From positions 60,617 through 124,616 of the forward strand of contig JAGPCK010000001.1 of NCBI GenBank assembly GCA_018058135.1: DNA of 64,000 bases. Direction: 5' to 3'. Shown piece after piece: positions 2,725 through 34,815 of this stretch. Numbering within the stretch: position 1 is the first letter of the stretch; each line of letters starts with the position of its first letter. Under the pieces are notes generated by a model that had not been told where the DNA came from, made no database searches, and saw nothing but the letters and a program-made list of their open reading frames with translations. This DNA comes from Bacteroidia bacterium (GTDB lineage: Bacteria; Bacteroidota; Bacteroidia; UKL13-3). Position numbers and translations under genes: made by a program.

Positions 2725-2936
2725 TTGGTTGGCAAGAGAATCCGTCACGCAATGCGAAGAAATGAAACGGAATTTTATGTTGGCCTACGGGAACACGCCC
2801 AGTTGCAGGTAGCTGGTGGCCAGTTTGTCAATACCGTTTACAAAAGCTGCGGTTCGGAGGTCTTTAATTTCGCGGTTGTGGTTACGTATGTCAAACAATT
2901 CATTGGTGGCACCAATCATGGCATCTTCTATACCTG
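2725..2936 (-). pseudogene. Partial diverged copy A of the gdh 3' end (last ~53 codons plus ~95 bp downstream), about 90% identical to 15315..15553
   Basis: Direct alignment to the true gdh terminus. It would encode ..IGATNELFDIRNHNREIKDLRTAAFVNGIDKLATSYLQLGVFP* and shares the downstream string gaagaaatgaaa.ggaattttatgttgg.cctacgggaacac. The ORF track lists the 73-aa remnant at 2785..3006. Confidence 0.8.
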
Positions 2937-3046
2937 ATACATTGGCATTGAACAAATAATTTGTCTTAAAATTAAAGAAAATGTTGGCCATTTGTATGAC
3001 CAACATTTAACTTTTGTGATGATGTGAAAAATCAGGTTCCTTTGGA

Positions 3047-8701: not shown

Positions 8702-8726
8702 GACTTTATATTTTAATCACTTACTA

Positions 8727-10463: not shown

Positions 10464-10628
10464 AAGCTGTGTTTTTGATAGCAAAATTAAGAGCAAGTAA
10501 GGGCAGGCACTTATACTTGTAATTCAACTTACCATTCGGCACATAAACGAGGACAATAGGTCGTTTTTTTTGTAAATCCGTACTGGTCATTTGAACCGGA
10601 TAATGAAAAACCATTGTTTCTTTGCAAC

Positions 10629-13520
10629 ATGGTGATTACACCGAAGGCTTTTCTTTTCGCAGGTTTGATGCTTTTTGTTTTCAGCACAGCATTGTGCCAG
10701 GTTAACTACAAAAACCTGACACGTGCACACGGACTTTCATCAGACAATGTATATTTTAGTTTATGCGACTCCAAAGGACTAATGTGGTTTGGAACCGATA
10801 ATGGCGTTTGTCGATATGATGGAGCGGAGTTCAAAATTTTTGATATTGATGATGGCATTACCGACAACGAAGTATTCAGAATATTTGAAGACTCCAAAGG
10901 GCGCATCTGGATACTACCTTACAACGGACAACTTTGTTTTATCCTCAATAACCAGGTTTATCATACGGGGAATACACCATGGCTGCGTGGGTTTAATAAC
11001 AAAGACTTCTTTACCGACATGGTTGAAGATGGTGAAGGCAACATCTGGTTTTTTAAGGAACAAAATCAAGAGTTCTGCATATTGGAAAACAATCTACAGG
11101 TAAAATATGGTTCACTGCCATTTAAATCATTCTATAATAACCATGTATTGTTACACGGAATCCACTACATTTTTTACAACACCAAAATCGCTAAGAAAAA
11201 GTGGGTGTACACCGTGGCCATGCTCAACCGGGAACTGAAACCCTTGACAACTTGCAGCACTAATCTATACTGCCGTTACTTTTTTACGCACCAGGATTCA
11301 CTTCGGTTTGGATGCTTTTTCGATGACAAGGAAGAAGACAATCGGATGATAAGCAGCAACAGCATTAACTTTGAAAAGGCCATTCGTGAAAAAGTGAACC
11401 CTATTTCTTTGCTTGGAAGTAGAAAAATAAATGATGCGGCATCCTTATTTCACAACCTTATTTTAACTTCTGAAAATGGCGCAATCTTGATTAAACCTCA
11501 TGAACAAGAAACATGGTTACCCGGAATTTTTGTATCTTCTGTTTCCATTGATAAAGAGAACGGAGTGTGGCTCACCACTAAAAACAATGGCGTATTTTAC
11601 TATCCGGCAAGCCTTACCAAACCCGTTCACTCCATCACCGACCCAATTTACCTGATCAAACAAAATCCGCTAAAACCACAGGAACTTTATGCAGCCAGTA
11701 ATTCCTTTATTTACCGATTGAATGGTAAAAAAACTGAAAAAATAAGTTTACCAGCATTTGTCGGTAAAAATGAACCCATCAGTGATATTATTTTTCTTAA
11801 CAATGGACACTTGGTATTGAGCAACGGAAACGGAGTATATTTTTACAATGGAAAAAAATTCCAACTTTCAGAAGGGAAGGCAGGTACCAAACAAATGTTG
11901 TATATGAACGACACGCTTTACTTTGCTCGTTCAAACAGTATTACCCTACAAGCGGCTGCTACTCTGCTCCAGCCTTACGATTTACACCATCCATTATTTA
12001 TCCAACTACATAACAACCGGGCATTGTGTTTGGTGCCTGCCAATCAGAATGAGTTTCTTTTCGGAAACAATTTTGGCGCATGGCGAATCAGCAAAACTGG
12101 CAAAACGGTTCATATTCCCGGCATTCAAAACCGCATTCACCGCATAGCTGTTTCTCCCAAAAGTTACACCGCTTATTGCTCAGACATTAATGGTGTATAC
12201 ATTCAATACAAAAATGAGCTGCATCATTACACCAACCAAAACGGTTTAACCAGCAACAGCGTTACATCAGCCTGCTTTGATGCCAACAACAACCTTTGGG
12301 TTGCAACGCCTAATGGCATCTCGCGCATTCATACCAAAACCCATAATGTAATCAACTACCACCTGTTCAGTGGAAACCGGGATGAAAAAATATACGACCT
12401 TTATTTAAACTCCGACACCACACTGCTATTGGCCACCGGCAGCGGATTGTTTGAATTTAACACCACACAAAAACCGTCTGATACCAAACCGGATATTATT
12501 ATCACGCAAATCAAAGTAAACGGACAAAACAGGGAACTCTCTACAATGGCTTCCCTTTCATCTGTTGAAAATACTATTGAAATTGCTCTTACTGCCATCT
12601 CCTATGCATTGCCACAACCCGATTTCTTTTACAGAATAGGGGGAAACGGTTCGCAATGGCAGAAAATCAGTGGCCGGGTACTCACCTTTGCCAACCTGCC
12701 TTCGGGGAGCTATGATATTCACATCCGCTGCAAAAGTATAAATGGATTATGGAGCAACACAAGAGCCATACACTTTGAAATTCATGCGCCTATTTATAAA
12801 AAATGGTGGTTTATGTGGAGCACTCTTGCAGTGCTTGCTTCCACCATAGTGCTTATCATTTACCATTGGCAAAAACGCATTCGTAAAAACAAAGAAATTG
12901 AGTTACTCCTGTCGGAAACACGACAGAAAGCCATGAGGGCACAGTTAAATCCGCACTTCGTTTTTAACGCACTCAACTCTATCCAGTTTTTGTACATGAG
13001 TCACCGCGAAGAACAGGCCATTGAATACCTGAATAAATTTTCAGTAGTACTTAGAAATATTCTTAAGCATGCCGAACAAACTTACATCCGCATTGACGAA
13101 GAAATTGAAAACATCAGAAGTTACCTTGACATAGAACAACTTAGGCTGAATGACAGGTTCACCTATTCCATTGAAACAGCCAACGAAATCGACCCCTATG
13201 CATGCCTCATCCCATCCATGCTCCTCCAGCCCTTTATAGAAAATTCCATCTGGCATGGCTTTAAAGGAATCAACTATATAGGTATGATTGATATCCGCAT
13301 CGCAAAACACAATGAACAATACCTTACCATCACCATCAGCGACAACGGTGTAGGTTTCGACACAACAGTGGCTCCCGACCCTTCCGTTTCAAAAGGAAGG
13401 CACCTGATAGAAAACAGAATTGCTGCACTCAACAAACTCAATAAACTGCCCATTCGTGTAAATACAGCAAGCACTAAGTCGGGTACCATCATCCATATTT
13501 TATTCCCTATTCAATACTGA
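10629..13520 (+). CDS. Sensor histidine kinase, LytS/YehU type: periplasmic two-component-regulator propeller repeats plus Y_Y_Y domain, one transmembrane segment, His_kinase (PF06580-like) and HATPase_c
   Basis: Signal MVITPKAFLFAGLMLFVFSTALCQ at the ATG at 10629; the track's 10614 is a TTG. It has the transmembrane segment WWFMWSTLAVLASTIVLIIY, the H-box LNPHFVFNALNSIQFL, the N-box IENSIWHG and the G1 box SDNGVGF. Confidence 0.85.
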   Translation: MVITPKAFLFAGLMLFVFSTALCQVNYKNLTRAHGLSSDNVYFSLCDSKGLMWFGTDNGVCRYDGAEFKIFDIDDGITDNEVFRIFEDSKGRIWILPYNGQLCFILNNQVYHTGNTPWLRGFNNKDFFTDMVEDGEGNIWFFKEQNQEFCILENNLQVKYGSLPFKSFYNNHVLLHGIHYIFYNTKIAKKKWVYTVAMLNRELKPLTTCSTNLYCRYFFTHQDSLRFGCFFDDKEEDNRMISSNSINFEKAIREKVNPISLLGSRKINDAASLFHNLILTSENGAILIKPHEQETWLPGIFVSSVSIDKENGVWLTTKNNGVFYYPASLTKPVHSITDPIYLIKQNPLKPQELYAASNSFIYRLNGKKTEKISLPAFVGKNEPISDIIFLNNGHLVLSNGNGVYFYNGKKFQLSEGKAGTKQMLYMNDTLYFARSNSITLQAAATLLQPYDLHHPLFIQLHNNRALCLVPANQNEFLFGNNFGAWRISKTGKTVHIPGIQNRIHRIAVSPKSYTAYCSDINGVYIQYKNELHHYTNQNGLTSNSVTSACFDANNNLWVATPNGISRIHTKTHNVINYHLFSGNRDEKIYDLYLNSDTTLLLATGSGLFEFNTTQKPSDTKPDIIITQIKVNGQNRELSTMASLSSVENTIEIALTAISYALPQPDFFYRIGGNGSQWQKISGRVLTFANLPSGSYDIHIRCKSINGLWSNTRAIHFEIHAPIYKKWWFMWSTLAVLASTIVLIIYHWQKRIRKNKEIELLLSETRQKAMRAQLNPHFVFNALNSIQFLYMSHREEQAIEYLNKFSVVLRNILKHAEQTYIRIDEEIENIRSYLDIEQLRLNDRFTYSIETANEIDPYACLIPSMLLQPFIENSIWHGFKGINYIGMIDIRIAKHNEQYLTITISDNGVGFDTTVAPDPSVSKGRHLIENRIAALNKLNKLPIRVNTASTKSGTIIHILFPIQY

Positions 13521-13521
13521 T

Positions 13522-14268
13522 ATGATTAAAGCATTGGTTATAGATGATGAACAAATGGCGCGCGACACCATTGAACTGTTCATTAAAAAATATACCCCCG
13601 ACATACAACTCATTGGCAAAGCAGGCTCGGTAACAGAAGGTGTGCGGCTCATACAGCAAACCCCGCCCGACATTTTATTTCTCGATATCAACATGCCTGA
13701 GAAAAAGGGGTTCGCTATATTTGACGAGATTGATCTGAGTCATATCAAAGTAATTTTTACCACTGCATACAGTGAATATGCCATCAAGGCCATCAACCTC
13801 TCAGCAAGTTACTACCTGCTTAAACCCATCTCTCCGGTAGAATTTAAAAAAGCTGTAGAAAAAACACTCGAAAAAATAAATCAACAGGTTTCTGATGTAA
13901 ACACCATTGCTTTTTTGAAAAACCTGATTGGACAAAACCAGCCCCATCCCAAACAACTACTCATCAACATCAGGCAGGGATATGAGCTCATCAAAACAGA
14001 AGAGATCATGTACCTCGAGGGTGAAAAAAATTATACCTGGATTCACCATTCAGATAAAAAACACCTAGTGGCTAAGCCACTCAAAGATTACGAAGAATTC
14101 CTCGACCCAGGTCAATTTTTCCGCATACACCAATCATTTCTCATCAACCGCCATTTCATCAAAAAAATTTACAACACCAAACCCGATCAGGTGGAACTTC
14201 ACAACAACACCCGCATCAACATCTCGCGCGACAAAAAAAGAAAATTTATTGAGTGGCTGGAACGGTAA
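13522..14268 (+). CDS. LytTR-family response regulator (REC + LytTR DNA-binding domain)
   Basis: MIKALVIDDEQ..DILFLDINMP receiver, and a C-terminal LytTR domain (IMYLEGEKNYTWIHHSDKKHLVAKPLKDYEEFLDPGQFFRIHQSFLIN). Its start lies 1 nt after the kinase stop. Confidence 0.9.
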   Translation: MIKALVIDDEQMARDTIELFIKKYTPDIQLIGKAGSVTEGVRLIQQTPPDILFLDINMPEKKGFAIFDEIDLSHIKVIFTTAYSEYAIKAINLSASYYLLKPISPVEFKKAVEKTLEKINQQVSDVNTIAFLKNLIGQNQPHPKQLLINIRQGYELIKTEEIMYLEGEKNYTWIHHSDKKHLVAKPLKDYEEFLDPGQFFRIHQSFLINRHFIKKIYNTKPDQVELHNNTRINISRDKKRKFIEWLER

Positions 14269-14315
14269 AATGAAAGTTACTTAAACAGAAATAAAATCTA
14301 ATTGTATGCCTCCCT

Positions 14316-14393
14316 GCTACGGGAACACACCCAGTTGCATGTAGCTGGTGGCCAGTTTGTCAATACCGTTTACAAAAGCTGCAATGCGCAGGT
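14316..14393 (-). repeat. Partial copy B of the gdh 3' end, ~78 bp
   Basis: ctacgggaacacacccagttgca.gtagctggtggccagtttgtcaataccgtttacaaaagctgc..tgcgcaggtc matches 15391..15470 almost exactly and then diverges. Confidence 0.8.
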
Positions 14394-14460
14394 CGCGGGG
14401 ACGTCAAACACGGGCAATTGTAGCTAATGGTATAACACGCTGCTACAAATATGAACATTA

Positions 14461-15297
14461 CTAAAGGCTAGGTATGCCAGTTTCATCTGTAAAAATACGG
14501 GGTACTACTCTAATTATTTTCTCCTCCTTCCGTTCATTTTTCTCAAACCCTCTTTTTTTTACTTTAGGCTCAATTAAGGTTTCTTCTTCATAAGAATTTG
14601 AAATAAATAAAGGAATACACTCTGGCTCAAACTGTACTGTGTATGTTAAAAAATCAATTTTGCTTGAAGTCAATCTTTTATCATACGCACTAGAGTCAGA
14701 GCATAATATATCTATTGATTTGAATATTGCAACGCGTAAGTTATGATTATTTATTTGAACAGAATCGTAAGTGATTCTTTTTTTTCCCTTAATATGTTTG
14801 AAATCGTATGGATTACATATTTCGATTAAGTTCATTTCTCTGTAGAAATAATTGCAAGATAATCTTACTTCGAATTTATATTGTGAGAATGGCATTACTT
14901 TGACAAACTTATACCAATCAAATGCATCGTAAAGATGCATTATTTTTTTACCTGATGATATATAAAAGTGACCATAGGTTGGTGTAATTGATAAAAAATA
15001 TTCCTTGCTGTAAAAATCATATTGATGAACCACCGGTGAGTAATTATATATTGCTTCATCAATCATTCCTGTATATAGGTAATTTACTTCTTGAGTATTA
15101 TTTACTATTAAAAAAGTGTTAACACTATCATTATTGTCGTCTTTTAAGTAAATAAGATGAACTCCTTCAGTGTAATTTGAATCAAGCCCTTCTTTCGCAA
15201 CTATCGTTTCACATCCATGTGTCTGGGCAAATGCATTTATCCCAAGGCTAATCTGCAGACAACACAAAAAAATATAGACTAATTTATTATACCTCAT
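14461..15297 (-). CDS. Hypothetical secreted protein, very AT-rich (single-gene islet between gdh copies B and C)
   Basis: ATG at 15297 gives MRYNKLVYIFLCCLQISLGINAFAQ, a signal peptide. The track's longer 15447 start runs into the gdh 3' end and is spurious. I recognise no domain. Base composition is sharply lower in GC than the neighbours. Confidence 0.55.
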   Translation of the reverse strand: MRYNKLVYIFLCCLQISLGINAFAQTHGCETIVAKEGLDSNYTEGVHLIYLKDDNNDSVNTFLIVNNTQEVNYLYTGMIDEAIYNYSPVVHQYDFYSKEYFLSITPTYGHFYISSGKKIMHLYDAFDWYKFVKVMPFSQYKFEVRLSCNYFYREMNLIEICNPYDFKHIKGKKRITYDSVQINNHNLRVAIFKSIDILCSDSSAYDKRLTSSKIDFLTYTVQFEPECIPLFISNSYEEETLIEPKVKKRGFEKNERKEEKIIRVVPRIFTDETGIPSL

Positions 15298-15400
15298 GTC
15301 AATAATATTATTGTCTTTGGTTGGCGAAGACGGCAACCACGGACTAAGAAGGGGATCCATCACGCAAACAGAAGAAATGAAATGGAATTTTATGTTGGGC

Positions 15401-16825
15401 CTACGGGAACACACCCAGTTGCAGGTAGCTGGTGGCCAGTTTGTCAATACCGTTTACAAAAGCTGCTGTGCGCAGGTCTTTGATTTCGCGGTTGTGGTTG
15501 CGTATGTCAAACAGTTCATTGGTGGCACCAATCATGGTATCTTCTAAACCTGAGCGCACCAAATCAATTTCATCGGCACCGTGAATGAGTATGCTTTTTT
15601 GTTTTGCATCAACGCTATTGCCGGTTAACTGTTCAATGGTATCTACCAGTCTGCGCATGGCACCTTCTTCAAACCTTCGCTCCATACGTCCGAAACGTAC
15701 GTGCGACAAATTGCGCAACCATTCAAAGTAGGACACCGTTACACCACCTGCATTCAGGTATAAATCGGGCAGCAACATGATGTTACGCTCCAACAGAATT
15801 TTTTCTGCTGCGAAAGTTGTGGGGCCGTTAGCACCCTCAGCAATTACTTTGGCTTTTATGCGGGGCGCATTTTCATGAGTTATCTGGTTTTCCAGGGCAG
15901 CGGGTATTAACACATCGCATTCCTGTTCCAGTAATTCCATCGAATTGGTGAAATTTTTTGCACCCGGAAAATCAAGTATGGAACGTGTGTTTTTGCGGTG
16001 CTGAAATACTTCTTCTACATCCAGGCCATCGGCATTATATATTCCACCTTCATATTCGGCAATGCCTACTATAACGGCACCACCTTCCTGACAAAATTTG
16101 GCTGCGTAGTAACCTACATTACCTAAACCTTGTACTATAATCCGCTTGCCTTCTATGCCCGTGGTGAGACCTATTTTAGTCATCTCTTCCTTGTTGCTCA
16201 GGCACTCGCGAATACCGTAAAAAATACCCAGACCTGTGGCTTCTGTGCGGCCGTTAATTCCGCCTTGTCCAACGGGTTTTCCTGTTACGCAACCCAGCGC
16301 ATTAATATCATCGGGTTTAAAGGCAGCGTAAGTATCGGCAATCCAGGCCATCTCACGTGGTCCGGTGCCATAATCAGGAGCAGGCACATCTACAGCCGGG
16401 CCAATCATGTCTCTGCGAATTAATTCCGTGGCAAACCTGCGGGTTATTTTCTCCAATTGTGCGGGTGAATATTTTTTGGGGTCCACCTTTACTCCACCTT
16501 TGGCACCTCCAAAAGGTACGTTTACAACGGCACATTTAAATGTCATGAGCGTTGCTAAGGCTTTTACCTCGTCCACGTCTACCATTTCGCTGAACCGAAT
16601 ACCGCCTTTTACGGGTGTTTTATGCTGGCTGTGCTGAACGCGGATGCCTTCAAACACTTCAATATTCTCTCCTATTTTTACCGGAAAATTAGTCACGTAA
16701 ACACTGTTGCAGATTTTGATTTGTTCCAGCAAACCCTTGTCGTGCTTAGTATAGCGTGCAGCATTGTCGAAATAGTGCAGTACATCGTTGTAAAAACCAA
16801 GACCTGCATTTTTAGCGTGGCTCAT
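15401..16825 (-). CDS. gdhA: Glutamate dehydrogenase (Glu/Leu/Phe/Val dehydrogenase family)
   Basis: 474 aa, ..VNVPFGGAKGGVKVDPKKYSPAQLEKITRRFATEL.. and GLGNVGYYAAKF (Rossmann fold). ATG at 16825. Confidence 0.9.
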   Translation of the reverse strand: MSHAKNAGLGFYNDVLHYFDNAARYTKHDKGLLEQIKICNSVYVTNFPVKIGENIEVFEGIRVQHSQHKTPVKGGIRFSEMVDVDEVKALATLMTFKCAVVNVPFGGAKGGVKVDPKKYSPAQLEKITRRFATELIRRDMIGPAVDVPAPDYGTGPREMAWIADTYAAFKPDDINALGCVTGKPVGQGGINGRTEATGLGIFYGIRECLSNKEEMTKIGLTTGIEGKRIIVQGLGNVGYYAAKFCQEGGAVIVGIAEYEGGIYNADGLDVEEVFQHRKNTRSILDFPGAKNFTNSMELLEQECDVLIPAALENQITHENAPRIKAKVIAEGANGPTTFAAEKILLERNIMLLPDLYLNAGGVTVSYFEWLRNLSHVRFGRMERRFEEGAMRRLVDTIEQLTGNSVDAKQKSILIHGADEIDLVRSGLEDTMIGATNELFDIRNHNREIKDLRTAAFVNGIDKLATSYLQLGVFP

Positions 16826-18276: not shown

Positions 18277-18425
18277 GAATCTTATAATTTATAAAAAGTG
18301 GGACAAAGGTAGGGAAATGATGGGGGTGAAAGCAAGCAGCAATACGCAAGCCCCCGAAAGCAAAAAAAGCGCTTTCAAATAAACAATCAATAGTGGAATA
18401 AGTATATTCGTTGACTCGAAATCAA

Positions 18426-18938
18426 ATGAAAAAATTAAAGTACATCTATTGCTTGCTGGTGTTGATAGGGTTTTCCTCAATTACTCAAGCACAGTATACA
18501 GCCAAACAATTGCAATCAAGGGCTCAGTTTCAGGCTCAGCAAATGATGGATTCTCTTGTAAAAGGGAGGCATACCGGTTATGTCGCTTTTATTTACCCCA
18601 AACTGGCTCAAATGGCCGGGGGAAAAGAATCTATGGTAACTGGCTTAGATAAAGTGCGGGAAAACATGGTTAAAAAGGGAGAACAGTTTGTTCGTATCAA
18701 AGCCGGAAAAGCAGGAACGTGTGTTAAAGAGAAGAATGAGTTGCAATGTGTACTTCAACAAACCACTACTGTCAAAACCCTGCAAGGAGAAAAAAACTTA
18801 CGCACACATATTATCTGCATATCTGTTGACAATGGAAAACGCTGGACCTTTATTGATACCGGTGGAGCAAAGCCAGAGATGATACGGCAGGCTTTCCCCA
18901 ATGTAAGTGCATCATTGGTGTTTCCGACATTGAATTAA
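18426..18938 (+). CDS. Hypothetical secreted protein
   Basis: ATG at 18426 gives MKKLKYIYCLLVLIGFSSITQAQ, a signal peptide; the track's 18411 start is a TTG. No domain recognised. Confidence 0.55.
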   Translation: MKKLKYIYCLLVLIGFSSITQAQYTAKQLQSRAQFQAQQMMDSLVKGRHTGYVAFIYPKLAQMAGGKESMVTGLDKVRENMVKKGEQFVRIKAGKAGTCVKEKNELQCVLQQTTTVKTLQGEKNLRTHIICISVDNGKRWTFIDTGGAKPEMIRQAFPNVSASLVFPTLN

Positions 18939-18941
18939 CTG

Positions 18942-19049
18942 TTATTTCTTTTCCAGAAAATCCATCAGCTCCCGTTTATACGATTCAACACCCAACACAT
19001 CACTCACCTGATAATAATCTCCTGTGTTGGTGGTTACTATATCCCTCGG
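18942..19049 (-). pseudogene. Remnant copy of the DUF4476 gene 3' end (last ~31 codons, ~88% identical to 22608..22700)
   Basis: Reverse-strand reading gives ..IVTTNTGDYYQVSDVLGVESYKRELMDFLEKK*, against ..TTNTGDYYQLSDVLGVESYKRELMEFLEKK* for the intact gene. An in-frame stop 35 codons upstream truncates it. Confidence 0.8.
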
Positions 19050-19132
19050 TTAGCTTGGGAGAGTATTGCCGATTTTAGGCATATAATGAGACCTACCCCC
19101 TTAAGCTGTTTTTGTAAGCTTTTGCTAAATTA

Positions 19133-19834
19133 CTATTGCGGGTGTACATGAAAATCATAGGTTTTAAGGGAAGAAACTCCTATCACATCTGTAGCTGATA
19201 CATTTAGAACATAATGGGCGTGAACTTTTGTTCTGATTCCGTAGATTGTATCAAAATTATGTGTCGTTGTGTTTTTAATGGTGGTAAGATAATTGAACAC
19301 AAGATTATTCTCTTTAGTAATCCATATTCGTGCTGACTTGAGATTTTTAGTATGCTCAATAACTCCTTTAATATTTAGTGTCTCCCCGTCTGCAAATAAA
19401 TCTTTGTAAGGCGAAAGAATCGTAATTTGAGGTTGGGGTTCAATGATGTTGTTTATTACAGAAAATGTTACCGACTTTTCAGCTATGCTTCCGTTATGAT
19501 TCATTGCTTGAACAATCAACTTCATTTGAGTGTACTTCAATACACCTGGCAAAAAATAGAGATTGACTTTGGCCTCTTTGCTATGTGAATGCCCCTCATA
19601 AGAATAAACCATTGAACTATCCTCTGTGTTAATAACCTCAATTTGATAATCATGAATATCATCATCAGAAACAATGTAAACCTGAATACGAGCTGTGTCA
19701 CTTTCATATAGCTCCTGATTGTTAATCGGAGATATAATGTCTATGCTGGTATCTGTTAAACCAATTGACTGATTATCTTTAATGCACCCCAATAGAAGTG
19801 TTACTGCTAAAAAAACTACTGACTGAATTCTCAT
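19133..19834 (-). CDS. Hypothetical lipoprotein
   Basis: MRIQSVVFLAVTLLLGCIKDNQ, a signal peptide with a lipobox-like LLGC. 233 aa, no recognised domain. First gene of the island operon when read from the 3' end. Confidence 0.55.
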   Translation of the reverse strand: MRIQSVVFLAVTLLLGCIKDNQSIGLTDTSIDIISPINNQELYESDTARIQVYIVSDDDIHDYQIEVINTEDSSMVYSYEGHSHSKEAKVNLYFLPGVLKYTQMKLIVQAMNHNGSIAEKSVTFSVINNIIEPQPQITILSPYKDLFADGETLNIKGVIEHTKNLKSARIWITKENNLVFNYLTTIKNTTTHNFDTIYGIRTKVHAHYVLNVSATDVIGVSSLKTYDFHVHPQ

Positions 19835-19846
19835 TTAAACTTTTAA

Positions 19847-20749
19847 TTAAAACAAATAAAGCACCTGCACTGCTGAACGAGATCTGGTACTTGCAAAACC
19901 GCTGTTAAGTTGCTCCTGAATTGGTAAAGTAATACTTACGCCTGCACTTATTCTCCTGAAGTATGCATCAACTCCTGAAGAAATGTAGTATCCATTACCC
20001 CCCGTAAACTTTTGCTCAATACCATACTTTCTGTCTCTTGCTGAATATTCAGATAAACATCCTGCATGAAGCAAAAATGAAGTTGCTTTTGCTTTTCCCC
20101 AATAAAAGAAACGCAAACTTGATATCAACCTGTTGCCATAACTATAGTCACCATTTGAGGTATTGATTCGAAATGTAGCATCTGCATTGGCACCTACTTT
20201 TTTATATCGCAAAGTGTAAATCATGTTTACACTATAGTCCCATGTACCTGTTCCTGTTTGTATTGATGCCGGTTTGTTGTTGCTGAACCTACCCGAAGGG
20301 AACTTTATACCTCCCCCTAACATGAGGGTATTGCGGTAAGTAAACCTTCCACTGTCTCCGGTATTAATAAGAATGAAATGGCCCAAAATTGATAAATCAG
20401 AAAGTCCTTTAGAAGATGATGTATGATCTTGTTCCTTTCTTACATTATATTGATAAGGAACTGATGCATAACCAACAATTCTTCTGGTAAAAAAATATCG
20501 CCCCCACACCTCAAATCTGTTCAGGCTTTCATAATACTTGGAATTTGTCTGTGGAAAAAGCGTGGGGGTATGGCGCATCTTATAACTGCTGCTCATATAC
20601 CTGATGCCTGCAAAATTTCTACTAAACTGGGGTAATATTCCAAAATAGTTCGCATTCACTGAGCATCCGCATACATCACATGCATACAAATTCAAATGAC
20701 TGCAAAAAAATATGGCAAATGCCATAAAAATACCCGCTGGTGCTTTCAT
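19847..20749 (-). CDS. Putative outer-membrane beta-barrel protein with a Cys-rich CDVCGC motif after the signal peptide
   Basis: 300 aa, N-terminus MKAPAGIFMAFAIFFCSHLNLYACDVCGCS. Alternating hydrophobic pattern throughout, and a C-terminal ..VQVLYLF aromatic terminus typical of beta-barrel outer-membrane proteins. Confidence 0.45.
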   Translation of the reverse strand: MKAPAGIFMAFAIFFCSHLNLYACDVCGCSVNANYFGILPQFSRNFAGIRYMSSSYKMRHTPTLFPQTNSKYYESLNRFEVWGRYFFTRRIVGYASVPYQYNVRKEQDHTSSSKGLSDLSILGHFILINTGDSGRFTYRNTLMLGGGIKFPSGRFSNNKPASIQTGTGTWDYSVNMIYTLRYKKVGANADATFRINTSNGDYSYGNRLISSLRFFYWGKAKATSFLLHAGCLSEYSARDRKYGIEQKFTGGNGYYISSGVDAYFRRISAGVSITLPIQEQLNSGFASTRSRSAVQVLYLF

Positions 20750-20755
20750 TCAAGA

Positions 20756-21979
20756 TCAGTTCTTGATAATCTTTGAAAAAAATATACGCCCATCTTTACC
20801 TATTGATTTTAATACAAAAAATCCTGGTCTTACCTTCTGTAAATTTATGCTTCCAGATGAGTTTTCTCCCTCAATCACCAAATCTCCTTTGTTATCGAAT
20901 AACTGATACGAGATACACTGTGAACTTAGTTTGATGTAATCTGTTGCAGGATTAGGATAAACAAGTTGAGATAAATAAGAATACTCACTATCCTTGCTTG
21001 TGCCTAATATCAAAGGTACAGACCAGAGAACAATATCACTCCTTCTATTACCTGTTGCTATTTTATTCCCATTGGGTGACCATGCAATTGTATTAATTGC
21101 CCCGCTGTCCCTAACTCCAAACGTTGATAGTTCAGTACCATCTGATAAGTTCCAAATTTTACAACTACTATCTGATGAAGCAGAGGCAATCATTTTTCCG
21201 TTTGGAGAAATATCAATCCCATTTACGCTACCGGTATGCCCCGAAATTGTTCTAATAAGCATCCCGTTATTAATGTCCCATACCTTTATTGTGCCGTCTT
21301 TAGCAGATGAAATAACAAAGTTATTATCCGGTGTTACTCTCACTTGAGTAATATCTGCTGCATGGCCAGAACATACGTATTTGAGATTACCATTTACATC
21401 CCAAATTTTCACTTTATCATCACTTCCCCCTGAAACAATACTAACCCCGTTAAAAGAATAAGCTATTGTTGTAACCCATGAGGAATGTGCATTACTAATT
21501 TCTTTTATTAATACCCCAGTTAAAATATCATAAATTTTAACTTTACCATTTGAGCAGGCAACTGCAACTTTACTATTGTCGGGCGAAACACAAGTTGCAA
21601 ATCCATAAGATGTGTTTGTAGTTATCGTGTCTTTGATTACCGGCAACAGACCCGAGTTGTTGAAAATCAATATGTTTCCAAACTCTTCAATAGTAACTAT
21701 ATATTGAGAGTTACTGCTGAAGGCAACACCCATAATGCACAAAAATGCAGATCCAACTTCATAATCCCATTTAAGCAATCCATCTGAAGAATTATAAATT
21801 CGAATTGAGGCGGGGTGACAATCTGTTCCACTAAGTACTTGTTCCCCATCTGATTTGAAAGCTACGCTATTTATGGATAGGCTATATGGATTAGCCTTTT
21901 GCGACCAATCAATTGTTTGAGCAGCAACTTTAAATGTCACTGCACAAAGCAACAGTACAATTTGTATTGAATTTCTCAT
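20756..21979 (-). CDS. WD40-repeat beta-propeller protein with T9SS type A C-terminal sorting domain
   Basis: Signal MRNSIQIVLLLCAVTFKVAAQ. WD motifs SGGSDDKVKIWDV, SSAKDGTIKVWDI, SASSDSSCKIWNL. C-terminus LVYPNPATDYIKLSS...GFFVLKSIGKDGRIFFSKIIKN. Confidence 0.8.
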   Translation of the reverse strand: MRNSIQIVLLLCAVTFKVAAQTIDWSQKANPYSLSINSVAFKSDGEQVLSGTDCHPASIRIYNSSDGLLKWDYEVGSAFLCIMGVAFSSNSQYIVTIEEFGNILIFNNSGLLPVIKDTITTNTSYGFATCVSPDNSKVAVACSNGKVKIYDILTGVLIKEISNAHSSWVTTIAYSFNGVSIVSGGSDDKVKIWDVNGNLKYVCSGHAADITQVRVTPDNNFVISSAKDGTIKVWDINNGMLIRTISGHTGSVNGIDISPNGKMIASASSDSSCKIWNLSDGTELSTFGVRDSGAINTIAWSPNGNKIATGNRRSDIVLWSVPLILGTSKDSEYSYLSQLVYPNPATDYIKLSSQCISYQLFDNKGDLVIEGENSSGSINLQKVRPGFFVLKSIGKDGRIFFSKIIKN

Positions 21980-22150
21980 ACATTCTTAATTAAATCTATA
22001 TTCTGAACTTTACTTTAACATTTCAAACACTATAACGAAAGTACACAGTAGTGAAATGACGAACCCTCCTAAAACAGGAAGAAAAGCCTTAAATAGCAAA
22101 GAGGATATCTAAAGGCAGGTAAATAATCTGCATTTAGCGATTAATGAAAA

Positions 22151-22552
22151 TCAAGCTACTTTACTATCAGCAAAAAAAGATGGTGGGTGAAAGATTTTCT
22201 TAAATGGCCCAGATGGAATAAAAAACAAAAGGGGTGAAAAAGGAGTATTTCTGAAACAAAGAAAAATTGAGGGAGTTGTGACTTTGCCTGAATTCAAAAA
22301 TAACAGAAGTTCTTTTAAGTCTTTTGCTTCAAAGGGCAGCTTCTTCTCTTGATTATCTTGTTGTTTTAGTTGTTTTTTCAGATGACACTTTCCTCTACAT
22401 TGCTGCTCAGGTTTGTTCTTATTAATACAAAGTTCTGAAACTATATAATCTTTGTTGATTATATAATAGCCAAAAATGCCTGTCTTAACAAAGCACTGAA
22501 GACTAAATGCACAAATGAGTAATATGACAATAGATTGTCTCACAAAGTGCAA
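22151..22552 (-). CDS. Hypothetical Lys/Cys-rich small protein; existence uncertain
   Basis: 133-aa ORF with a TTG start only, no internal Met, and a signal-like N-terminus. Weak support. Confidence 0.25.
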   Translation of the reverse strand: MHFVRQSIVILLICAFSLQCFVKTGIFGYYIINKDYIVSELCINKNKPEQQCRGKCHLKKQLKQQDNQEKKLPFEAKDLKELLLFLNSGKVTTPSIFLCFRNTPFSPLLFFIPSGPFKKIFHPPSFFADSKVA

Positions 22553-22607
22553 ACTTACTTCATATAAAATAAAAACAAAGGTTAAAATAAAAGATTATTC
22601 AACCAAG

Positions 22608-23702
22608 TTACTTTTTCTCCAGAAACTCCATCAATTCCCGTTTATACGATTCAACACCCAACACATCGCTCAACTGATAATAATCTCCTGTATTAGTGGT
22701 AAAATCATACGCAAACTTAGCCAACTCTAATTTATACGATTCAACCCGCAAAGTATTAACCAAAGCTTTTACCTGATTCACAGTAAAGCACTTTTTACTA
22801 CGCATAATTTGCTTGGCTGTGTTCAATCTGTTGGACTCCACAGTTTGTTTATTCAGTGTGGTTTTAATGCTGTTAAAATCGGCATCACTTACGGTACAGG
22901 GTGGTGGTGTATTGTCTGAAGGGTTTGTTTTGTTTTGCTCATTGTAAAATGCAATCAGGTTATCCTGGTTGGGCTGGTGCTTAAACACCTGAATCATTTT
23001 AAGGTAATTGCCTTGATCATAAGATCGGGCATATGTCTGCTTAAATAAAGCCAGTCGGTTAGATTCCAATTCTAACGAAATACCGATACGCATCAACTGG
23101 GCCACAGTAAGGCAACCGGTATTACTCATGGTGCCTGCTGCACCCATTTTGTCAGCATCATTGCTCATGGCCTGAATGTTTTTGAAATAATAATCAAAAT
23201 CATTATCTGCTAAAGGTGTCTCGCAACCTGTATTGCCTTTGTATGCCCGCCAATCAGGGTAAGTAATATTACTCCATGGGTTGCTTGGTGCAGGAGTTGG
23301 AACAGGTCGTGGTCGTTGTTGAGCAGGCACAGGTTTCTGTTCTTTTACAAAATCATGCAAACGAAATACTGTAGAGAAATAGGCAAAGGCATCATACACC
23401 TCCACAAAATTTTCTTTATCAGCTGTATTGATGTAAGCCGTTTTACATAAATCAAGTCTATCGTAATCATTCTCCAGCAAGGCGGCCATTTCTTTGAGTT
23501 GTGTTGCGCTCACACAGTTATTCTGAACCACACGTTTGGCCTCAGCCAATCGCGACATTTGTTGAGACTGTGCTTGCACATTACGTAACAATTGCTGGAA
23601 AGTAATGTTGGGAACAGCGGTTCCGCATTTGGAGCTTTGGGCTTGGATGTTTGACGTAAAGACAGTCAAAACAACAAGTGTAAGAAGGTATACTTTTCTC
23701 AT
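22608..23702 (-). CDS. DUF4476 domain protein (three DUF4476-like repeats), secreted
   Basis: ATG at 23702 gives MRKVYLLTLVVLTVFTSNIQAQ. Three repeats follow the pattern C.T..Q.......D.L.....AY......N...V.D.F, e.g. CVSATQLKEMAALLENDYDRLDLCKTAY, CLTVAQLMRIGISLELESNRLALFKQTY and CFTVNQVKALVNTLRVESYKLELAKFAY. Confidence 0.7.
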   Translation of the reverse strand: MRKVYLLTLVVLTVFTSNIQAQSSKCGTAVPNITFQQLLRNVQAQSQQMSRLAEAKRVVQNNCVSATQLKEMAALLENDYDRLDLCKTAYINTADKENFVEVYDAFAYFSTVFRLHDFVKEQKPVPAQQRPRPVPTPAPSNPWSNITYPDWRAYKGNTGCETPLADNDFDYYFKNIQAMSNDADKMGAAGTMSNTGCLTVAQLMRIGISLELESNRLALFKQTYARSYDQGNYLKMIQVFKHQPNQDNLIAFYNEQNKTNPSDNTPPPCTVSDADFNSIKTTLNKQTVESNRLNTAKQIMRSKKCFTVNQVKALVNTLRVESYKLELAKFAYDFTTNTGDYYQLSDVLGVESYKRELMEFLEKK

Positions 23703-23725
23703 ATTTCGAATTAATTTCAACCGTT

Positions 23726-25855
23726 TTATTCCATTTTCATACCAAGATTGTAAAACGTAAACGCCCATTGGTCGGTTGCTTCATCAATCAACTTGGAAGT
23801 AGGCTTGCCTGCACCATGACCTGCTTTTTTATCAATGCGAATAAGCACGGGGTTGTTCCCTTTGTGACAGGCCTGTAAACGCGCTGTGAACTTATAGGAG
23901 TGTGCCGGTACTACACGGTCATCATGGTCGGCTGTAGTTACTAATGTGGCCGGGTAGTTTACTCCCTCTTTAAGATTGTGCAAAGGAGAATAGAGCAACA
24001 AGTTTTTAAACATAATGAGTGAATCACTGCTGCCGTATTCGCCTATCCAACCCCAGCCTATGGTAAACTTATGGTAGCGCAACATATCCATTACACCTAC
24101 AGCAGGTAAAGCCACCTTAAACAATTCAGGTCGCTGGCACATTACAGCACCTACCAGGAGTCCACCATTCGAGCCACCTTTGATAGCCAGTTTTTGTGAG
24201 GAGGTGTATTTTTCATTAATCAGAAATTCTGCGCAAGCAATAAGGTCATTAAACACATTCTGTTTTTTCAGCAACATACCTGCTTCATGCCACTCTTCTC
24301 CGTACTCTCCGCCACCACGTAAATTAGCTAAGGCATAAATACCACCCTGCTCTAAAAATACCAGGTTGGAAATACTGAAAGAGGGTGTAAGGCTGATGTT
24401 AAATCCTCCGTAACCGTATAATAAAGCAGGGTTATTACCATCCAGCTTAATGCCTTTTTTGTGAACCAAAAACATAGGTACTTTGGTTCCGTCTATTGAC
24501 TTGGCAAAAACCTGTTTGGTTTCATATTGTTCGAAATCAAATTTGATATCCGGCTTTTTGAAAAGTGTAGTGGCGTTTGTAGTAATATCATATTTATAAA
24601 CACAGGAAGGATAGGTAAACGAAGTAAAAGTAAAATATACTTCTTTATCCTCACGATGGCCGGAGAAACCACTTACAGTTCCCAACGCAGGTAATTGTAC
24701 TTCGGCTTCCTGTTTACCTTTTGCATCAAACACGTACACCCGGCTGGTAGCATCTTTCATGTACACGGCCAATAGCTTTCCACCTGTGTATGAAATGCTC
24801 TCCAGCACTTCATCTTTACGTTCAGCAATTAATTCTTTCCAGTTCTTTTCATTCGGATTGGCCGGGTCAATCAGTACTACTTTTTTGTGAGGGGCATTGC
24901 GGTTAGTAAGAACTATGAGTTGATCGCCCATGTTATCAATCACCACATTCTCACTTTCAAAATCATTGATTAACGGTTTAAGGGATGAACCTGCTTTTGA
25001 TAAATCTCTTACAGATACTGCATTTTTAGATGCCGCACCTTCTGAAATATGCATAAGCATAAAACGCTCGTCTTCGGTTACGCCTATATCATAATAACGT
25101 TGTGGTTTGGAAGCATCATGATATACCAGCTCATCTTTGCTTTGGTCATTACCCAACTGGTGGTAATATATTTTATGGTATTCATTTTTAGCTGAAAGTT
25201 CTTTACCATCCACCGGGGCATCATAACGACAATAGAAAAATCCGTTTTTGTACCAGGAAGCGCCTGAGAATTTAATCCACTGTAAATGGTCGGCAGTTTT
25301 TTTACCGGTGTTCAAATCGAGCACAAAAAACTCGTTCCAGTCACTTCCTCCACTGGATGTGCCGTAAGCAGCAAAATCACCTTTGCGGTCGGGGGTGAAC
25401 ATCGTCAGTGATACTGTTCCGTCAGTCGAAAGTTTGTTGGGGTCAATCAATTCTTTCCCTTCTGCATCGGCTTTGTCCATTTGAAACAATATGCTCTGAT
25501 TCTGCAACCCATTGTTGCGGTACATAAAATATTTACTGCCTGATTTGAATGGAGCGCCAAACTTTGGATAATTCCACAGCTGTGTAAGACGGTCTTTTAT
25601 TTGTTTGCGGAAAGGAATTTTATCTAAGTAAGCAAAGGTAACTTCGTTTTGCTTGTCAACCCACTGCGATGTGGTATCTGAGTTTTCGTTCTCAAGCCAA
25701 TGGTAGGGATCGGCTACTTCTATTCCAAAGTAATTGTCTTTGTGATCTGATTTAATGGAGTACGGATAATTGAGTTGTTCTTGCACAGTCGCTGATTTTT
25801 GATTGCAGGCAGTAGCCAGCAAAATGATGGAAAATAAATATGTAGTCTGTTTCAT
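23726..25855 (-). CDS. Prolyl oligopeptidase (S9A family serine peptidase)
   Basis: ATG at 25855 gives MKQTTYLFSIILLATACNQ; the track's 25876 start is a GTG. S9 catalytic motif GGSNGGLLVGAV. The N-terminal beta-propeller portion is typical of prolyl endopeptidase. Confidence 0.85.
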   Translation of the reverse strand: MKQTTYLFSIILLATACNQKSATVQEQLNYPYSIKSDHKDNYFGIEVADPYHWLENENSDTTSQWVDKQNEVTFAYLDKIPFRKQIKDRLTQLWNYPKFGAPFKSGSKYFMYRNNGLQNQSILFQMDKADAEGKELIDPNKLSTDGTVSLTMFTPDRKGDFAAYGTSSGGSDWNEFFVLDLNTGKKTADHLQWIKFSGASWYKNGFFYCRYDAPVDGKELSAKNEYHKIYYHQLGNDQSKDELVYHDASKPQRYYDIGVTEDERFMLMHISEGAASKNAVSVRDLSKAGSSLKPLINDFESENVVIDNMGDQLIVLTNRNAPHKKVVLIDPANPNEKNWKELIAERKDEVLESISYTGGKLLAVYMKDATSRVYVFDAKGKQEAEVQLPALGTVSGFSGHREDKEVYFTFTSFTYPSCVYKYDITTNATTLFKKPDIKFDFEQYETKQVFAKSIDGTKVPMFLVHKKGIKLDGNNPALLYGYGGFNISLTPSFSISNLVFLEQGGIYALANLRGGGEYGEEWHEAGMLLKKQNVFNDLIACAEFLINEKYTSSQKLAIKGGSNGGLLVGAVMCQRPELFKVALPAVGVMDMLRYHKFTIGWGWIGEYGSSDSLIMFKNLLLYSPLHNLKEGVNYPATLVTTADHDDRVVPAHSYKFTARLQACHKGNNPVLIRIDKKAGHGAGKPTSKLIDEATDQWAFTFYNLGMKME

Positions 25856-33564: not shown

Positions 33565-34209
33565 TTGAAACCGTATATCCTGATATTCATCTTTTTTATT
33601 ACCTGCGGGGCTTTTGCACAAAATCAGCCTCCGGTTTTTGTACAACCCAATTACACGGATACAGCATTGGAGGCAGAACTGGATACCTGCCTCAGTATTG
33701 TTATTGATGCACCCGAGGTTGGCGACAGCGTAATATTCTGGATAGAAGGAGAACTGGTGAACAAAGACAGTAATGCCTTCATTCCTTTAAATATTGACCG
33801 TTCGACAGGTACACTAACTACTCAACTCTGTTTAAAAAATGTGTGCCGTAAGGTGCGTGGCGAACCATACGCATTTAAGTTGTTTGCCCGTGACTCCTCT
33901 TTTGACACCAGTGTTTATACGCTAAACATTTATCTAACCAACAGCCTTTCGCAGGAAATGCGCAAATTACCCAATGTGTTTACACCCAACGGTGATGGCA
34001 TAAACGATGAATTTAAACTGATAGATTCCAAAGCACAATGCGCCAACCTGTTTAGTATAACCGTGTTTAACCGGTGGGGGCAAAAGGTGTACGAAAACAA
34101 TCGGGTAAGTTTTAGCTGGGATGGCGGAAAAAGCCCTGACGGAGTGTATTTTTATATTATAGAAGCAGGCGGTGACGGGGTAAACGGAATACTGAACTTA
34201 ATTAGGTGA
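33565..34209 (+). CDS. Small secreted protein with T9SS type B (gliding-motility-associated, CHU_C-like) C-terminal domain
   Basis: Signal KPYILIFIFFITCGAFAQ. C-terminal region LPNVFTPNGDGINDEFKL...FNRWGQKVYE...DGVYFYIIEA matches the type B sorting domain. Only a TTG start is available. The 3' end overlaps the convergent thioredoxin gene by 12 bp. Confidence 0.7.
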   Translation: MKPYILIFIFFITCGAFAQNQPPVFVQPNYTDTALEAELDTCLSIVIDAPEVGDSVIFWIEGELVNKDSNAFIPLNIDRSTGTLTTQLCLKNVCRKVRGEPYAFKLFARDSSFDTSVYTLNIYLTNSLSQEMRKLPNVFTPNGDGINDEFKLIDSKAQCANLFSITVFNRWGQKVYENNRVSFSWDGGKSPDGVYFYIIEAGGDGVNGILNLIR

Positions 34210-34668: not shown

Positions 34669-34815
34669 GTCAGGTTTGTTTCAAAAACTATTCCAATGCG
34701 CAATATAAAAGAATAGGGCATATATTTCACATGGAAAAAGCGCCAGGCAAACTGATATGGAACAAAGGAAAGACTTACTTTTAAAACAAATGCACCAACA
34801 GCCCTGAAAGGGCGC

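What the first reader, a model, noticed from the sequence alone, without database searches (positions are those of the whole stretch)
18942..22700. Second instance of the same architecture: a 3.6 kb island flanked by a truncated copy of the DUF4476 gene 3' end
18942..19033 is about 88% identical to 22608..22700, the last ~31 codons of the DUF4476 gene. The remnant is in the same orientation as the intact gene and has an in-frame stop 35 codons upstream, so it is a dead remnant rather than a paralogue.

The 3.6 kb between the two copies encodes a lipoprotein, a Cys-motif beta-barrel protein, a WD40 T9SS cargo and a small Lys-rich ORF. All are on one strand, and again there is no integrase.

Two independent loci in one window show the layout gene-3'-end remnant, then cargo island, then intact gene. 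That points to a recurrent site-selecting insertion process that delivers cell-surface cargo modules.
Basis: seen in the sequence. Interest (0 to 1): 0.7.

Follow-up and report, generated by a model that had tools for sequence, protein, structure and literature searches.

The report
Integrase-free island displacing a gene's end
A four-gene outer-membrane operon was recently inserted into the last 94 bases of a DUF4476 gene in a Bacteroidia bacterium; it brought its own copy of the gene's end, pushed the original end 3.7 kb downstream, and carries no integrase, so it shows how new genes can be added using only short homology.

Summary
18941-19034 and 22607-22700 are a 94-nt direct repeat, 89% identical, ending at the DUF4476 stop codon. 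It occurs nowhere else in the collections searched.

The insertion reading is also right. Sister strains have a precise empty site in which DUF4476 abuts the converging 170-aa gene.

The downstream remnant is the resident gene end. The copy that now finishes the gene came in with the island: 8 of its 10 differences are synonymous, and several are alleles found in a relative's gene.

The island has lower GC (0.35) than its flanks. It is 99.4-99.9% identical between strains whose flanking core genes differ by 2.4-5.3%, so it spread recently.

The cargo is a conserved operon: small ORF, WD40/T9SS protein, barrel, lipoprotein. In other Bacteroidota it sits beside Fur, CobW, SCO1 and imelysin genes, which suggests metal acquisition.

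No integrase, inverted repeats or tRNA are present. The 1-kb gdh island is a fragment of a relative's own gdh locus, and the two gdh events have different boundaries.

My best explanation is a Campbell-type single crossover in short gene-end homology, using host recombination. A recombinase acting in trans is not excluded. "Site-selecting" therefore most likely means "homology-anchored".

The parts
22607..22700 (-). Copy A: the incoming (foreign) version of the last 30 codons plus stop of DUF4476. It now terminates the functional gene.
   Evidence: It differs from the empty-site sequence at 9 of 94 positions, against 2.5% in the gene body. Foreign alleles are fixed from repeat position 28 onward. 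It is 99-100% identical in all island-bearing strains.
22608..23768 (-). DUF4476 gene with three DUF4476 repeats. Other assemblies call the start at 23702, giving 364 aa.
   Evidence: Pfam PF14771, E = 1.8e-32. Orthologues P0001 (98%) and P0002 (75%).
19035..22606 (-). Inserted island of 3,572 nt, GC 0.354. It is absent from sister strains.
   Evidence: Precise absence in L002-L007 and L117. GC. It is 99.4-99.9% identical among strains whose flanks differ by 2.4-5.3%.
22151..22552 (-). Cargo gene 1: a small Lys-rich membrane-anchored ORF (130-133 aa). It is the conserved first gene of the module in other Bacteroidota.
   Evidence: No Pfam hit. A 115-130 aa ORF sits in the same position in L098-L104.
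20756..21979 (-). Cargo gene 2: a WD40 beta-propeller protein with a T9SS C-terminal sorting domain.
   Evidence: PF00400, E = 2e-42. TIGR04183, E = 4e-7, at residues 340-407.
19847..20749 (-). Cargo gene 3: an outer-membrane barrel (Phenol_MetA_deg-like) with an N-terminal CDVCGC motif.
   Evidence: PF13557, E = 1.2e-6. 44 homologues were found; the nearest non-identical one is 59% identical.
19133..19834 (-). Cargo gene 4: a lipoprotein with faint DUF4625/Big_7 similarity.
   Evidence: Weak Pfam hits only. Positional homologues in L098-L102 carry the same faint families.
18941..19034 (-). Copy B: the displaced resident 3' end of DUF4476, now a non-coding remnant. Its first 6-9 nt are donor-type and the rest is host-type.
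   Evidence: It matches the empty site at 8 of the 10 positions where A and B differ. It has two host haplotypes, B1 and B2, that track the flanks. All copies share the left edge ACCACCAAC.
18411..18938 (+). Converging 170-175 aa gene of unknown function. Its stop lies 4 nt from the resident DUF4476 stop.
   Evidence: In L002 the genes are at 6302-7396 and 7400-7912.
14395..15400 (-). Parallel event at gdh: a 1-kb island (GC 0.32) with one secreted orphan ORF (278 aa from MRYNK). It begins with a gdh-downstream flank X' of the ancestral type.
   Evidence: Absent in L002, L090 and others. The same ORF lies natively between gdh and AHSA1 in L116/L117. X' resembles X.
14287..14394 (-). Displaced resident gdh 3' end (78 nt) plus its own 30-nt flank.
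   Evidence: The flank is identical to the gdh flank of strains lacking the 1-kb island.
2734..2937 (-). Oldest displaced gdh 3' end (156 nt, 7 synonymous and 2 non-synonymous differences) plus the ancestral downstream flank X. It lies beyond the 11.4-kb island that carries the response regulator, histidine kinase and T9SS genes.

Best explanation
A DNA molecule from a related Bacteroidia lineage recombined with the resident DUF4476 gene end.

The molecule carried about 94 nt of that lineage's own DUF4476 3' end, followed by a four-gene outer-membrane operon that is probably a metal-acquisition module. A single reciprocal crossover took place between repeat positions 7 and 23. This is Campbell-type, additive integration.

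The whole molecule was thereby inserted:
- The gene is now completed by the incoming end (copy A).
- The resident end (copy B) was moved 3,666 nt downstream and is non-coding.
- Neither DUF4476 nor the converging gene 4 nt away was damaged.

No element-encoded integrase is involved. Host recombination functions act on short gene-end homology. The island then spread among strains 3-5% diverged, into the same site.

Shown here: the insertion, its polarity, the foreign origin of copy A, the chimeric repeat pattern, the recent spread, and the lack of mobility genes.

Inferred: a circular intermediate, dependence on host recombination, and the function of the cargo.
For: 1. Precise empty sites exist in sister strains.
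2. The empty-site sequence equals copy B at 8 of 10 diagnostic positions.
3. Copies A and B differ by 8 synonymous and 2 conservative changes. P(at least 8 synonymous | neutral) = 0.0003, so both evolved as ends of working genes.
4. A-type alleles (GAG, GAG, AAA) and B's left-edge allele ACCACC occur in the functional DUF4476 gene of relative L117.
5. The repeats are reciprocally chimeric. Copy A is host-like on the left (position 9 varies as in empty sites) and donor on the right. Copy B is constant donor-type on the left and variable host-type on the right, with haplotypes B1 and B2.
6. The foreign tract does not run upstream of the repeat. There is 1 fixed difference in the 200 nt upstream, against 7-8 in the 94 nt. 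The incoming DNA therefore carried only about 94 nt of homology.
7. Island GC is 0.354, against 0.41-0.44 in the flanks.
8. Island identity between strains is 99.4-99.9%, against 94.7-97.6% for the flanks. All four combinations of island haplotype and B haplotype occur.
9. There is no recombinase, inverted terminal repeat, tRNA or Rfam hit in or near the island. The only recombinase in the 64 kb is a XerC/D-like gene 33 kb away.
10. The gdh 1-kb island consists of a gdh end, a native-type flank and an ORF that in L116/L117 lies natively after gdh without flanking repeats.
11. Repeat lengths differ between events (94, 78, 156; and 46 and 13 nt of coding sequence for AHSA1) and there is no shared junction motif.
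12. There is an experimental precedent. In E. coli, single-crossover integration of circular molecules with truncated homology gave 109-950 bp duplications of the target locus (PMC3240628).
Against: - No circular or attP-type junction was found in JGI metagenome contigs. Assemblies rarely capture such molecules, so this is weak evidence.
- Homology of 78-156 nt, with exact blocks of only 27-37 nt, is a poor substrate for RecA.
- The crossover maps to the same left-hand 7-23 nt interval in two host backgrounds. The low-diversity tract ends within the first 23 nt of copy B in one background and at the end of B in another. That would also fit a fixed site-specific core.
- The donor lineage of the DUF4476 island is unsampled. 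The next barrel homologue is 59% identical.
- The donor-type left edge of copy B rests on only one or two nucleotides.
- The left edge of the gdh remnant (CATT) is not a known gdh allele.
Confidence: 0.55

Rival explanations
1. The island is a non-autonomous site-specific integrative element, like a CIME or a satellite. Its 94-nt gene-end mimic is an attP/att site. A tyrosine or serine recombinase encoded elsewhere in the genome, or on a helper element, inserts and excises it.
For: - Direct repeats made of the target gene's 3' end, with the gene restored, are the classical signature of such elements (review PMC5704250; tycheposon islands).
- The crossover maps to the same narrow interval at the 5' edge of the repeat in different host backgrounds.
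- The island's low-diversity tract stops at or within copy B.
- The island spread recently into diverged strains at exactly the same site.
Against: - No integrase or remnant of one is present in any of the three islands, and the genes are tightly packed.
- No integrase-bearing relative was seen at DUF4476 or gdh in about 30 contigs.
- The two gdh events use different boundaries and the junctions share no motif.
- The incoming gdh pieces carry 30-65 nt of native-type downstream flank. The cargo ORF of the 1-kb island sits in a relative without att-like repeats.
- No attP junction was found.
Confidence: 0.28
2. A linear fragment of a relative's chromosome was inserted. One end recombined homologously. 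The other end joined illegitimately a little upstream in the recipient gene, either by homology-facilitated illegitimate recombination or by replication template switching, so the resident end was re-copied rather than lost.
For: - For the gdh 1-kb island the donor is an orthologous chromosomal locus. The distal junction contains a 44-nt filler of unknown origin and junction-proximal scars (CATT).
- All events lie at tail-to-tail gene pairs.
Against: - HFIR normally deletes recipient DNA rather than duplicating it (PMC3240628).
- For DUF4476 the homologous switch and the illegitimate joint would have to fall within about 20 nt of each other.
- Copy B's left edge carries a natural donor-type allele. 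That argues for a reciprocal exchange.
- The identical junction is present in several host backgrounds.
Confidence: 0.12
3. There was no insertion. The remnant is what is left of a tandem DUF4476 paralogue, or the island is ancestral and the 'empty' strains simply lost it.
For: - The synonymous pattern would also fit two once-functional paralogues.
- Loss by recombination between A and B would regenerate a single copy.
Against: - The remnant equals the orthologous end of empty-site strains and keeps its 4-nt spacing to the converging gene.
- The outgroup L008 and the 94.5% lineage L117 lack the island.
- Island GC is low.
- The island is 10-30 times less diverged than its flanks.
- No empty-site strain carries A-type alleles, which deletion with a crossover to the right of position 28 would leave.
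- The same layout at gdh and AHSA1 would need three coincident paralogue decays.
Confidence: 0.03

Closest known systems
Cis-mobilizable elements (CIMEs) and tandem accretion at gene 3' ends, for example ICESt1-related elements at fda in Streptococcus thermophilus (review PMC5704250)
   Same: An integrase-less island bounded by direct repeats that include the 3' end of a protein-coding target gene. The gene stays intact. Several islands stack at one gene, as at gdh.
   Different: CIMEs are decayed ICEs or IMEs, and their att sites are used by a related element's integrase. Here no mobility-gene remnants and no integrase-bearing relatives were found. The boundaries at one gene differ. The incoming DNA carries native chromosomal flank.
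Campbell-type single-crossover integration of circular DNA with short or truncated homology (the E. coli lacZ duplications in PMC3240628)
   Same: The insert is flanked by a duplication of roughly 100 bp to 1 kb of the homologous segment. The repeats are reciprocally chimeric. No dedicated recombinase is needed.
   Different: This is known as a laboratory outcome with plasmids. Here it would be a natural, repeated route of gene gain, with homology of only 78-156 nt. The origin of the circles is unknown.
Tycheposons and tRNA-flanked flexible islands of Prochlorococcus (bioRxiv 10.1101/2020.12.28.424599)
   Same: Cargo, including metal and nutrient modules, is added at a fixed gene end. Older insertions are pushed outward and leave partial target copies as a trail.
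   Different: Tycheposons encode tyrosine or serine recombinases and target tRNA genes. Here the targets are protein-coding genes and no recombinase is present.
Homology-facilitated illegitimate recombination
   Same: Foreign DNA is anchored by one-sided homology to a conserved gene. The donor is a related chromosome.
   Different: HFIR typically deletes recipient DNA. Here the recipient DNA is duplicated and the repeat looks reciprocally exchanged.

Membership tests
CIME / non-autonomous site-specific integrative element | Bounded by direct repeats (attL/attR) that contain the 3' end of the target gene, with the gene restored | tested here: met
   94-nt repeat ending at the stop codon; the gene is intact.
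CIME / non-autonomous site-specific integrative element | Lacks its own integration and transfer genes | tested here: met
   Pfam and NCBIfam scans of all four ORFs and of the flanking ORFs find no recombinase.
CIME / non-autonomous site-specific integrative element | Derived from, or mobilised by, a related integrase-encoding element that uses the same att site | tested here: inconclusive
   No such element was seen at DUF4476 or gdh in about 30 related contigs, in plasmids, phages or IMG/VR. No attP junction was found. The whole genome was not available to search.
CIME / non-autonomous site-specific integrative element | Independent events at one target gene use the same crossover core | tested here: not met
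   The gdh remnants begin at -78 and -156. The three junction regions share no motif.
Campbell-type single-crossover (additive) integration through homology | The insert is flanked by a duplication of the homologous segment | tested here: met
Campbell-type single-crossover (additive) integration through homology | Repeats are reciprocal chimeras: proximal copy host-left/donor-right, distal copy donor-left/host-right | tested here: met
   The donor-left part rests on only 1-2 diagnostic bases.
Campbell-type single-crossover (additive) integration through homology | The incoming homologous segment is genuine orthologous DNA from a relative | tested here: met
   Synonymous-biased divergence. A-type alleles occur in L117's gene. 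Native gdh flank and native ORF context for the gdh island.
Campbell-type single-crossover (additive) integration through homology | A circular intermediate and dependence on host homologous recombination | not testable with these tools
   The attP-pattern scan was negative. Logan contigs of 3,696 and 3,690 nt end inside the 32-nt block shared by both copies, so they say nothing about circles.
Transposon / insertion sequence | Transposase, terminal inverted repeats, and a short identical target-site duplication | tested here: not met
   No transposase and no terminal inverted repeats. The repeats are 94 nt and 11% diverged, with a synonymous bias. Copy B is unchanged relative to the empty site, which rules out in-situ duplication.
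Homology-facilitated illegitimate recombination | One homologous junction, one microhomology junction, usually with deletion of recipient DNA | tested here: not met
   Recipient DNA is duplicated, not deleted. The distal copy has a donor-type left edge (definition from PMC3240628).
Tycheposon / tRNA-targeting island | A tyrosine or serine recombinase in the element and a tRNA target | tested here: not met
   No recombinase in the island and no tRNA in the window.

The most novel reading that the evidence does not exclude
In this Bacteroidia lineage, cassettes flanked by short repeats of a conserved gene's 3' end act as integrase-free mobile units. Host recombination loops them out as circles. 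The circles re-enter the orthologous gene end of diverged relatives. This repeatedly builds flexible islands at tail-to-tail gene pairs (DUF4476, gdh, AHSA1). It would be a systematic, homology-addressed way of gaining genes that needs no mobile-element enzyme.
Probability: 0.28. Interest if true: 0.7.

Novelty: new variant of a known kind. Interest (0 to 1): 0.5.

Why it matters
Most hotspots of gene gain in bacterial chromosomes contain no recognisable mobile-element genes, and how DNA gets in is usually inferred rather than seen. This locus preserves the footprint of the entry event:
- a displaced resident gene end;
- an incoming gene end with alleles found in a relative;
- a precise empty site;
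- for the neighbouring gdh event, the donor-type locus itself.

If the route proves to be host-recombination-driven and general, it would explain how integrase-free accessory cassettes are added next to conserved genes without damaging them. Short gene-end remnants would then become a searchable marker of such events in any genome.

Tried and rejected
- Chance or generic repeat: rejected (E = 1e-23; the core occurs in a single other metagenome contig, which has the same two copies).
- In-situ long target-site duplication followed by divergence: rejected. Copy B is essentially unchanged relative to the empty site, while copy A carries 8-9% mostly synonymous differences.
- Transposon: rejected (no inverted terminal repeats, no transposase).
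- Decayed paralogue: rejected.
- Assembly artefact: rejected (at least 12 independent assemblies).
- Logan contigs of 3,696 and 3,690 nt looked like circles (island period plus k-1). They simply break inside the 32-nt block shared by both copies, so they are uninformative.
- The genome-contig scan with the lpd protein gave no useful comparators. The best species representative is 80% identical and synteny is lost.
- The scan for an attP or circle junction found nothing.
- Island DNA and the barrel protein have no match in plasmids, phages or IMG/VR.
- I first placed the crossover between repeat positions 6 and 9. Position 9 proved polymorphic in both island-bearing and island-free strains, so the interval was widened to 7-23.
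- Cargo function could not be sharpened. There are no PDB sequence matches and only faint Pfam hits for the lipoprotein.
- The contig look-up with ORF229 returned only a 1-kb contig, so no empty site was recovered for the 11.4-kb gdh island.


Full report
**Observation**

Window 18941-19034 and 22607-22700 form a gap-free 94-nt direct repeat with 84/94 identical bases. Self-blastn gives E = 1e-23.

The upstream copy (A) is the last 30 codons, the stop and one further base of the minus-strand DUF4476 gene 22608-23768 (PF14771). The downstream copy (B) has an in-frame TAA five codons before homology begins and no start codon.

Between the copies lie 3,572 nt with four co-directional genes:
- a 130-133 aa Lys-rich ORF;
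- a WD40 protein with a T9SS sorting tail;
- a Phenol_MetA_deg-like barrel that starts CDVCGC;
- a lipoprotein with faint DUF4625/Big_7 similarity.

There is no recombinase, tRNA, Rfam family or terminal inverted repeat. In the rest of the 64 kb the only recombinase is a 299-aa XerC/D-like gene next to aroQ, 33 kb away. The window is 100% identical to a MAG contig, GCA_018061185.1 JAGOUS010000001.1, labelled Bacteroidia bacterium.

**It is an insertion, and the empty site exists**

Contigs from sister strains about 96% identical in DNA (L002-L007) have the DUF4476 stop followed 4 nt later by the stop of the converging 170-aa gene, which corresponds to window 18411-18938. A 94.5% lineage (L116/L117) shows the same.

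The alignment to the window jumps from 22607 to 19028, with the 88-94 nt matching both copies. A more distant relative (L008, 75% protein identity) also lacks the island.

Island GC is 0.354, against 0.41-0.44 in the flanks. At least twelve independent assemblies carry identical junctions.

**Which copy is original**

At the ten positions where A and B differ, the empty site agrees with B at eight. B keeps the 4-nt spacing and the host flank. So B is the resident end, and A arrived with the island.

The ten differences are 8 synonymous and 2 conservative (L/V, E/D). Under neutral mutation, P(at least 8 synonymous) = 0.0003. Both copies therefore diverged while serving as ends of working genes.

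A-type alleles (GAG, GAG, AAA) and B's left-edge allele ACCACC occur in the functional DUF4476 gene of L117. An in-situ duplication followed by divergence is excluded: B is nearly unchanged while A differs by 9%.

**Anatomy of the exchange**

Across 14 island-bearing contigs the pattern is as follows:
- Copy A is constant from repeat position 28 onward, but varies at position 9 in the same way the empty sites do.
- Copy B always starts ACCACCAAC. From position 24 it falls into two haplotypes, B1 and B2, that go with the downstream host flank.

This is the pattern of a reciprocal single crossover between positions 7 and 23.

The foreign tract does not extend upstream. Island-bearing and island-free strains show 1 fixed difference in the 200 nt before the repeat, against 7-8 within it. 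The incoming DNA therefore carried only about 94 nt of DUF4476.

**Recent spread**

The island and copy A are 99.4-99.9% identical between the window and other island-bearing strains. Flanking genes differ far more: prolyl oligopeptidase (POP) 97.6%, DUF4476 body 97.2%, converging gene 94.7%, lpd 96.6%, gdh 96.5%. That is as much as between the window and island-free strains.

Two island haplotypes and two B haplotypes occur in all four combinations. The island is therefore 10-30 times younger than the strains that carry it, and it has moved among them.

**The parallel loci**

gdh (15401-16825) has two displaced ends.

*The 1-kb island.* The 78-nt remnant at 14317-14394 and its flank are identical to the gdh end and flank of strains that lack the 1-kb island 14395-15400.
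- That island starts with about 65 nt homologous to the ancestral gdh downstream flank.
- Its single ORF lies natively between gdh and AHSA1 in L116/L117, with no distal gdh repeat.
- Homology to that locus ends 22 nt after the ORF. A 44-nt filler of unknown origin follows, and then the remnant.

The incoming DNA was thus a fragment of a relative's own gdh locus.

*The 11.4-kb island.* The 156-nt remnant at 2782-2937, with its ancestral flank, lies beyond the 11.4-kb island carrying the two-component system and T9SS genes. It differs from all extant gdh ends by 7 synonymous and 2 non-synonymous changes (P = 0.0012).

*A third gene.* In L117 the spacer before AHSA1 holds two extra copies of the AHSA1 3' end (46 and 13 nt), each with its 37-nt flank.

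Boundaries differ at every event and no motif is shared.

**Cargo**

The barrel has 44 homologues; the nearest non-identical one is 59% identical. In other Bacteroidota the same module (small ORF, optional WD40 protein, barrel, lipoprotein) sits beside Fur, CobW, SCO1 and cytochrome c genes, or beside imelysin, Rieske and di-haem oxidoreductase genes.

A role in metal acquisition is an inference from this context only. PDB sequence searches gave nothing.

**Mechanism**

The evidence fits additive integration by one reciprocal crossover in a short gene-end homology. The incoming DNA came from a relative in which the cargo lay directly downstream of the orthologous gene.

Laboratory work in E. 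coli shows that circular molecules with truncated homology integrate by a single crossover and leave duplications of 109-950 bp (PMC3240628).

I put 0.55 on this host-recombination route. I put 0.28 on a recombinase acting in trans, as for CIMEs (PMC5704250) or tycheposon-type islands. The trans-recombinase rival is favoured by the narrow crossover interval. It is disfavoured by the differing gdh boundaries, the native flanks, the non-repeat-flanked donor context and the absence of any integrase. One-sided illegitimate joining gets 0.12 and non-insertion readings 0.03.

All events lie between tail-to-tail genes, where only insertions that preserve both gene ends would survive.

**Verdict**

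The insertion interpretation is confirmed with an empty site. The 'site-selecting process' is better read as homology-anchored addition. This is a new variant of a known kind, namely integrase-less islets bounded by target-gene-end repeats. It is well documented at the population level, and the enzymology is open.

Noticed in passing
window 34660-36330; loci L122, L124, L125, L127: The slot between the thioredoxin-like gene (34198-34668, minus strand) and the receiver-domain gene (36317-36796, plus strand) holds different pairs of small orphan ORFs in different strains: 187+144 aa here, 216+217 aa in L124, and 135+172 aa in L125/L127. A 54-nt segment is duplicated at both ends of the slot (34812-34865 and 36264-36317, 89% identical; it contains the hairpin CGAGGGG-TGATAG-CCCCTCG).
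   Followed up: partly
window 34958-34983 and 35501-35526; L117 8767-8792 and 8898-8923; L124 731-756; L125 633-658: A conserved 26-nt motif, CGCTGGCGCGAGCTTGTAGCTYGTGC, with a quasi-palindromic start, lies just downstream of unrelated small cassette ORFs in two different variable slots and in several strains. It could be a shared terminator or a cassette-associated site. It is absent from the DUF4476 and gdh islands.
   Followed up: partly
L117 8641-9053 (also L116 3332-3744): The spacer between the island-2-type ORF and AHSA1 contains two extra copies of the AHSA1 3' end (46 nt and 13 nt), each with its 37-nt downstream flank and each followed by a roughly 72-nt unit carrying the motif above. 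This is the same 'gene-end remnant' layout at a third gene, with almost no cargo.
   Followed up: partly
window 1944-2781; L089 13352-13917; L117 7682-9007: The stretch between gdh (or its oldest remnant) and AHSA1 holds three mutually unrelated low-GC cassettes in three strains: ORF229 here (GC 0.335), a 118-aa ORF in L089, and the 278-aa ORF in L116/L117. These were swapped without leaving duplications.
   Followed up: partly
window 2938-14286: The 11.4-kb segment between the two gdh remnants carries a LytTR response regulator, a Reg_prop/Y_Y_Y histidine kinase, a delta-60-repeat T9SS protein and a 1,884-aa RCC1-repeat protein. It is absent from L089/L105 and L116/L117 and is less diverged between strains (98.5%) than gdh and lpd (96.5%). 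No empty site with the matching gdh-end allele was recovered.
   Followed up: partly
window 55626-56525: A 299-aa tyrosine recombinase (Phage_integrase plus SAM_1) lies next to aroQ (55135-55557). By size and context it looks like housekeeping XerC/D. It is the only recombinase in the window.
   Followed up: no
window 14395-14438: A 44-nt filler (GTGTTATACCATTAGCTACAATTGCCCGTGTTTGACGTCCCCGC) sits between the end of homology to the L117-type locus and the 78-nt gdh remnant. It matches nothing else in the window or in any fetched locus.
   Followed up: yes
window 36872-40656 and 42113-50494: Two tandem paralogous TPR histidine-kinase genes (about 60% identical in DNA) and a 2,793-aa protein built of about 290-nt repeats account for most of the other repeat families in the window.
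   Followed up: no
L091 4734-6142; L093 2890-5020: In some JGI contigs of island-bearing strains the DUF4476 or prolyl-oligopeptidase genes are split into two ORFs. These may be frameshift errors of the assemblies or real pseudogenes.
   Followed up: no
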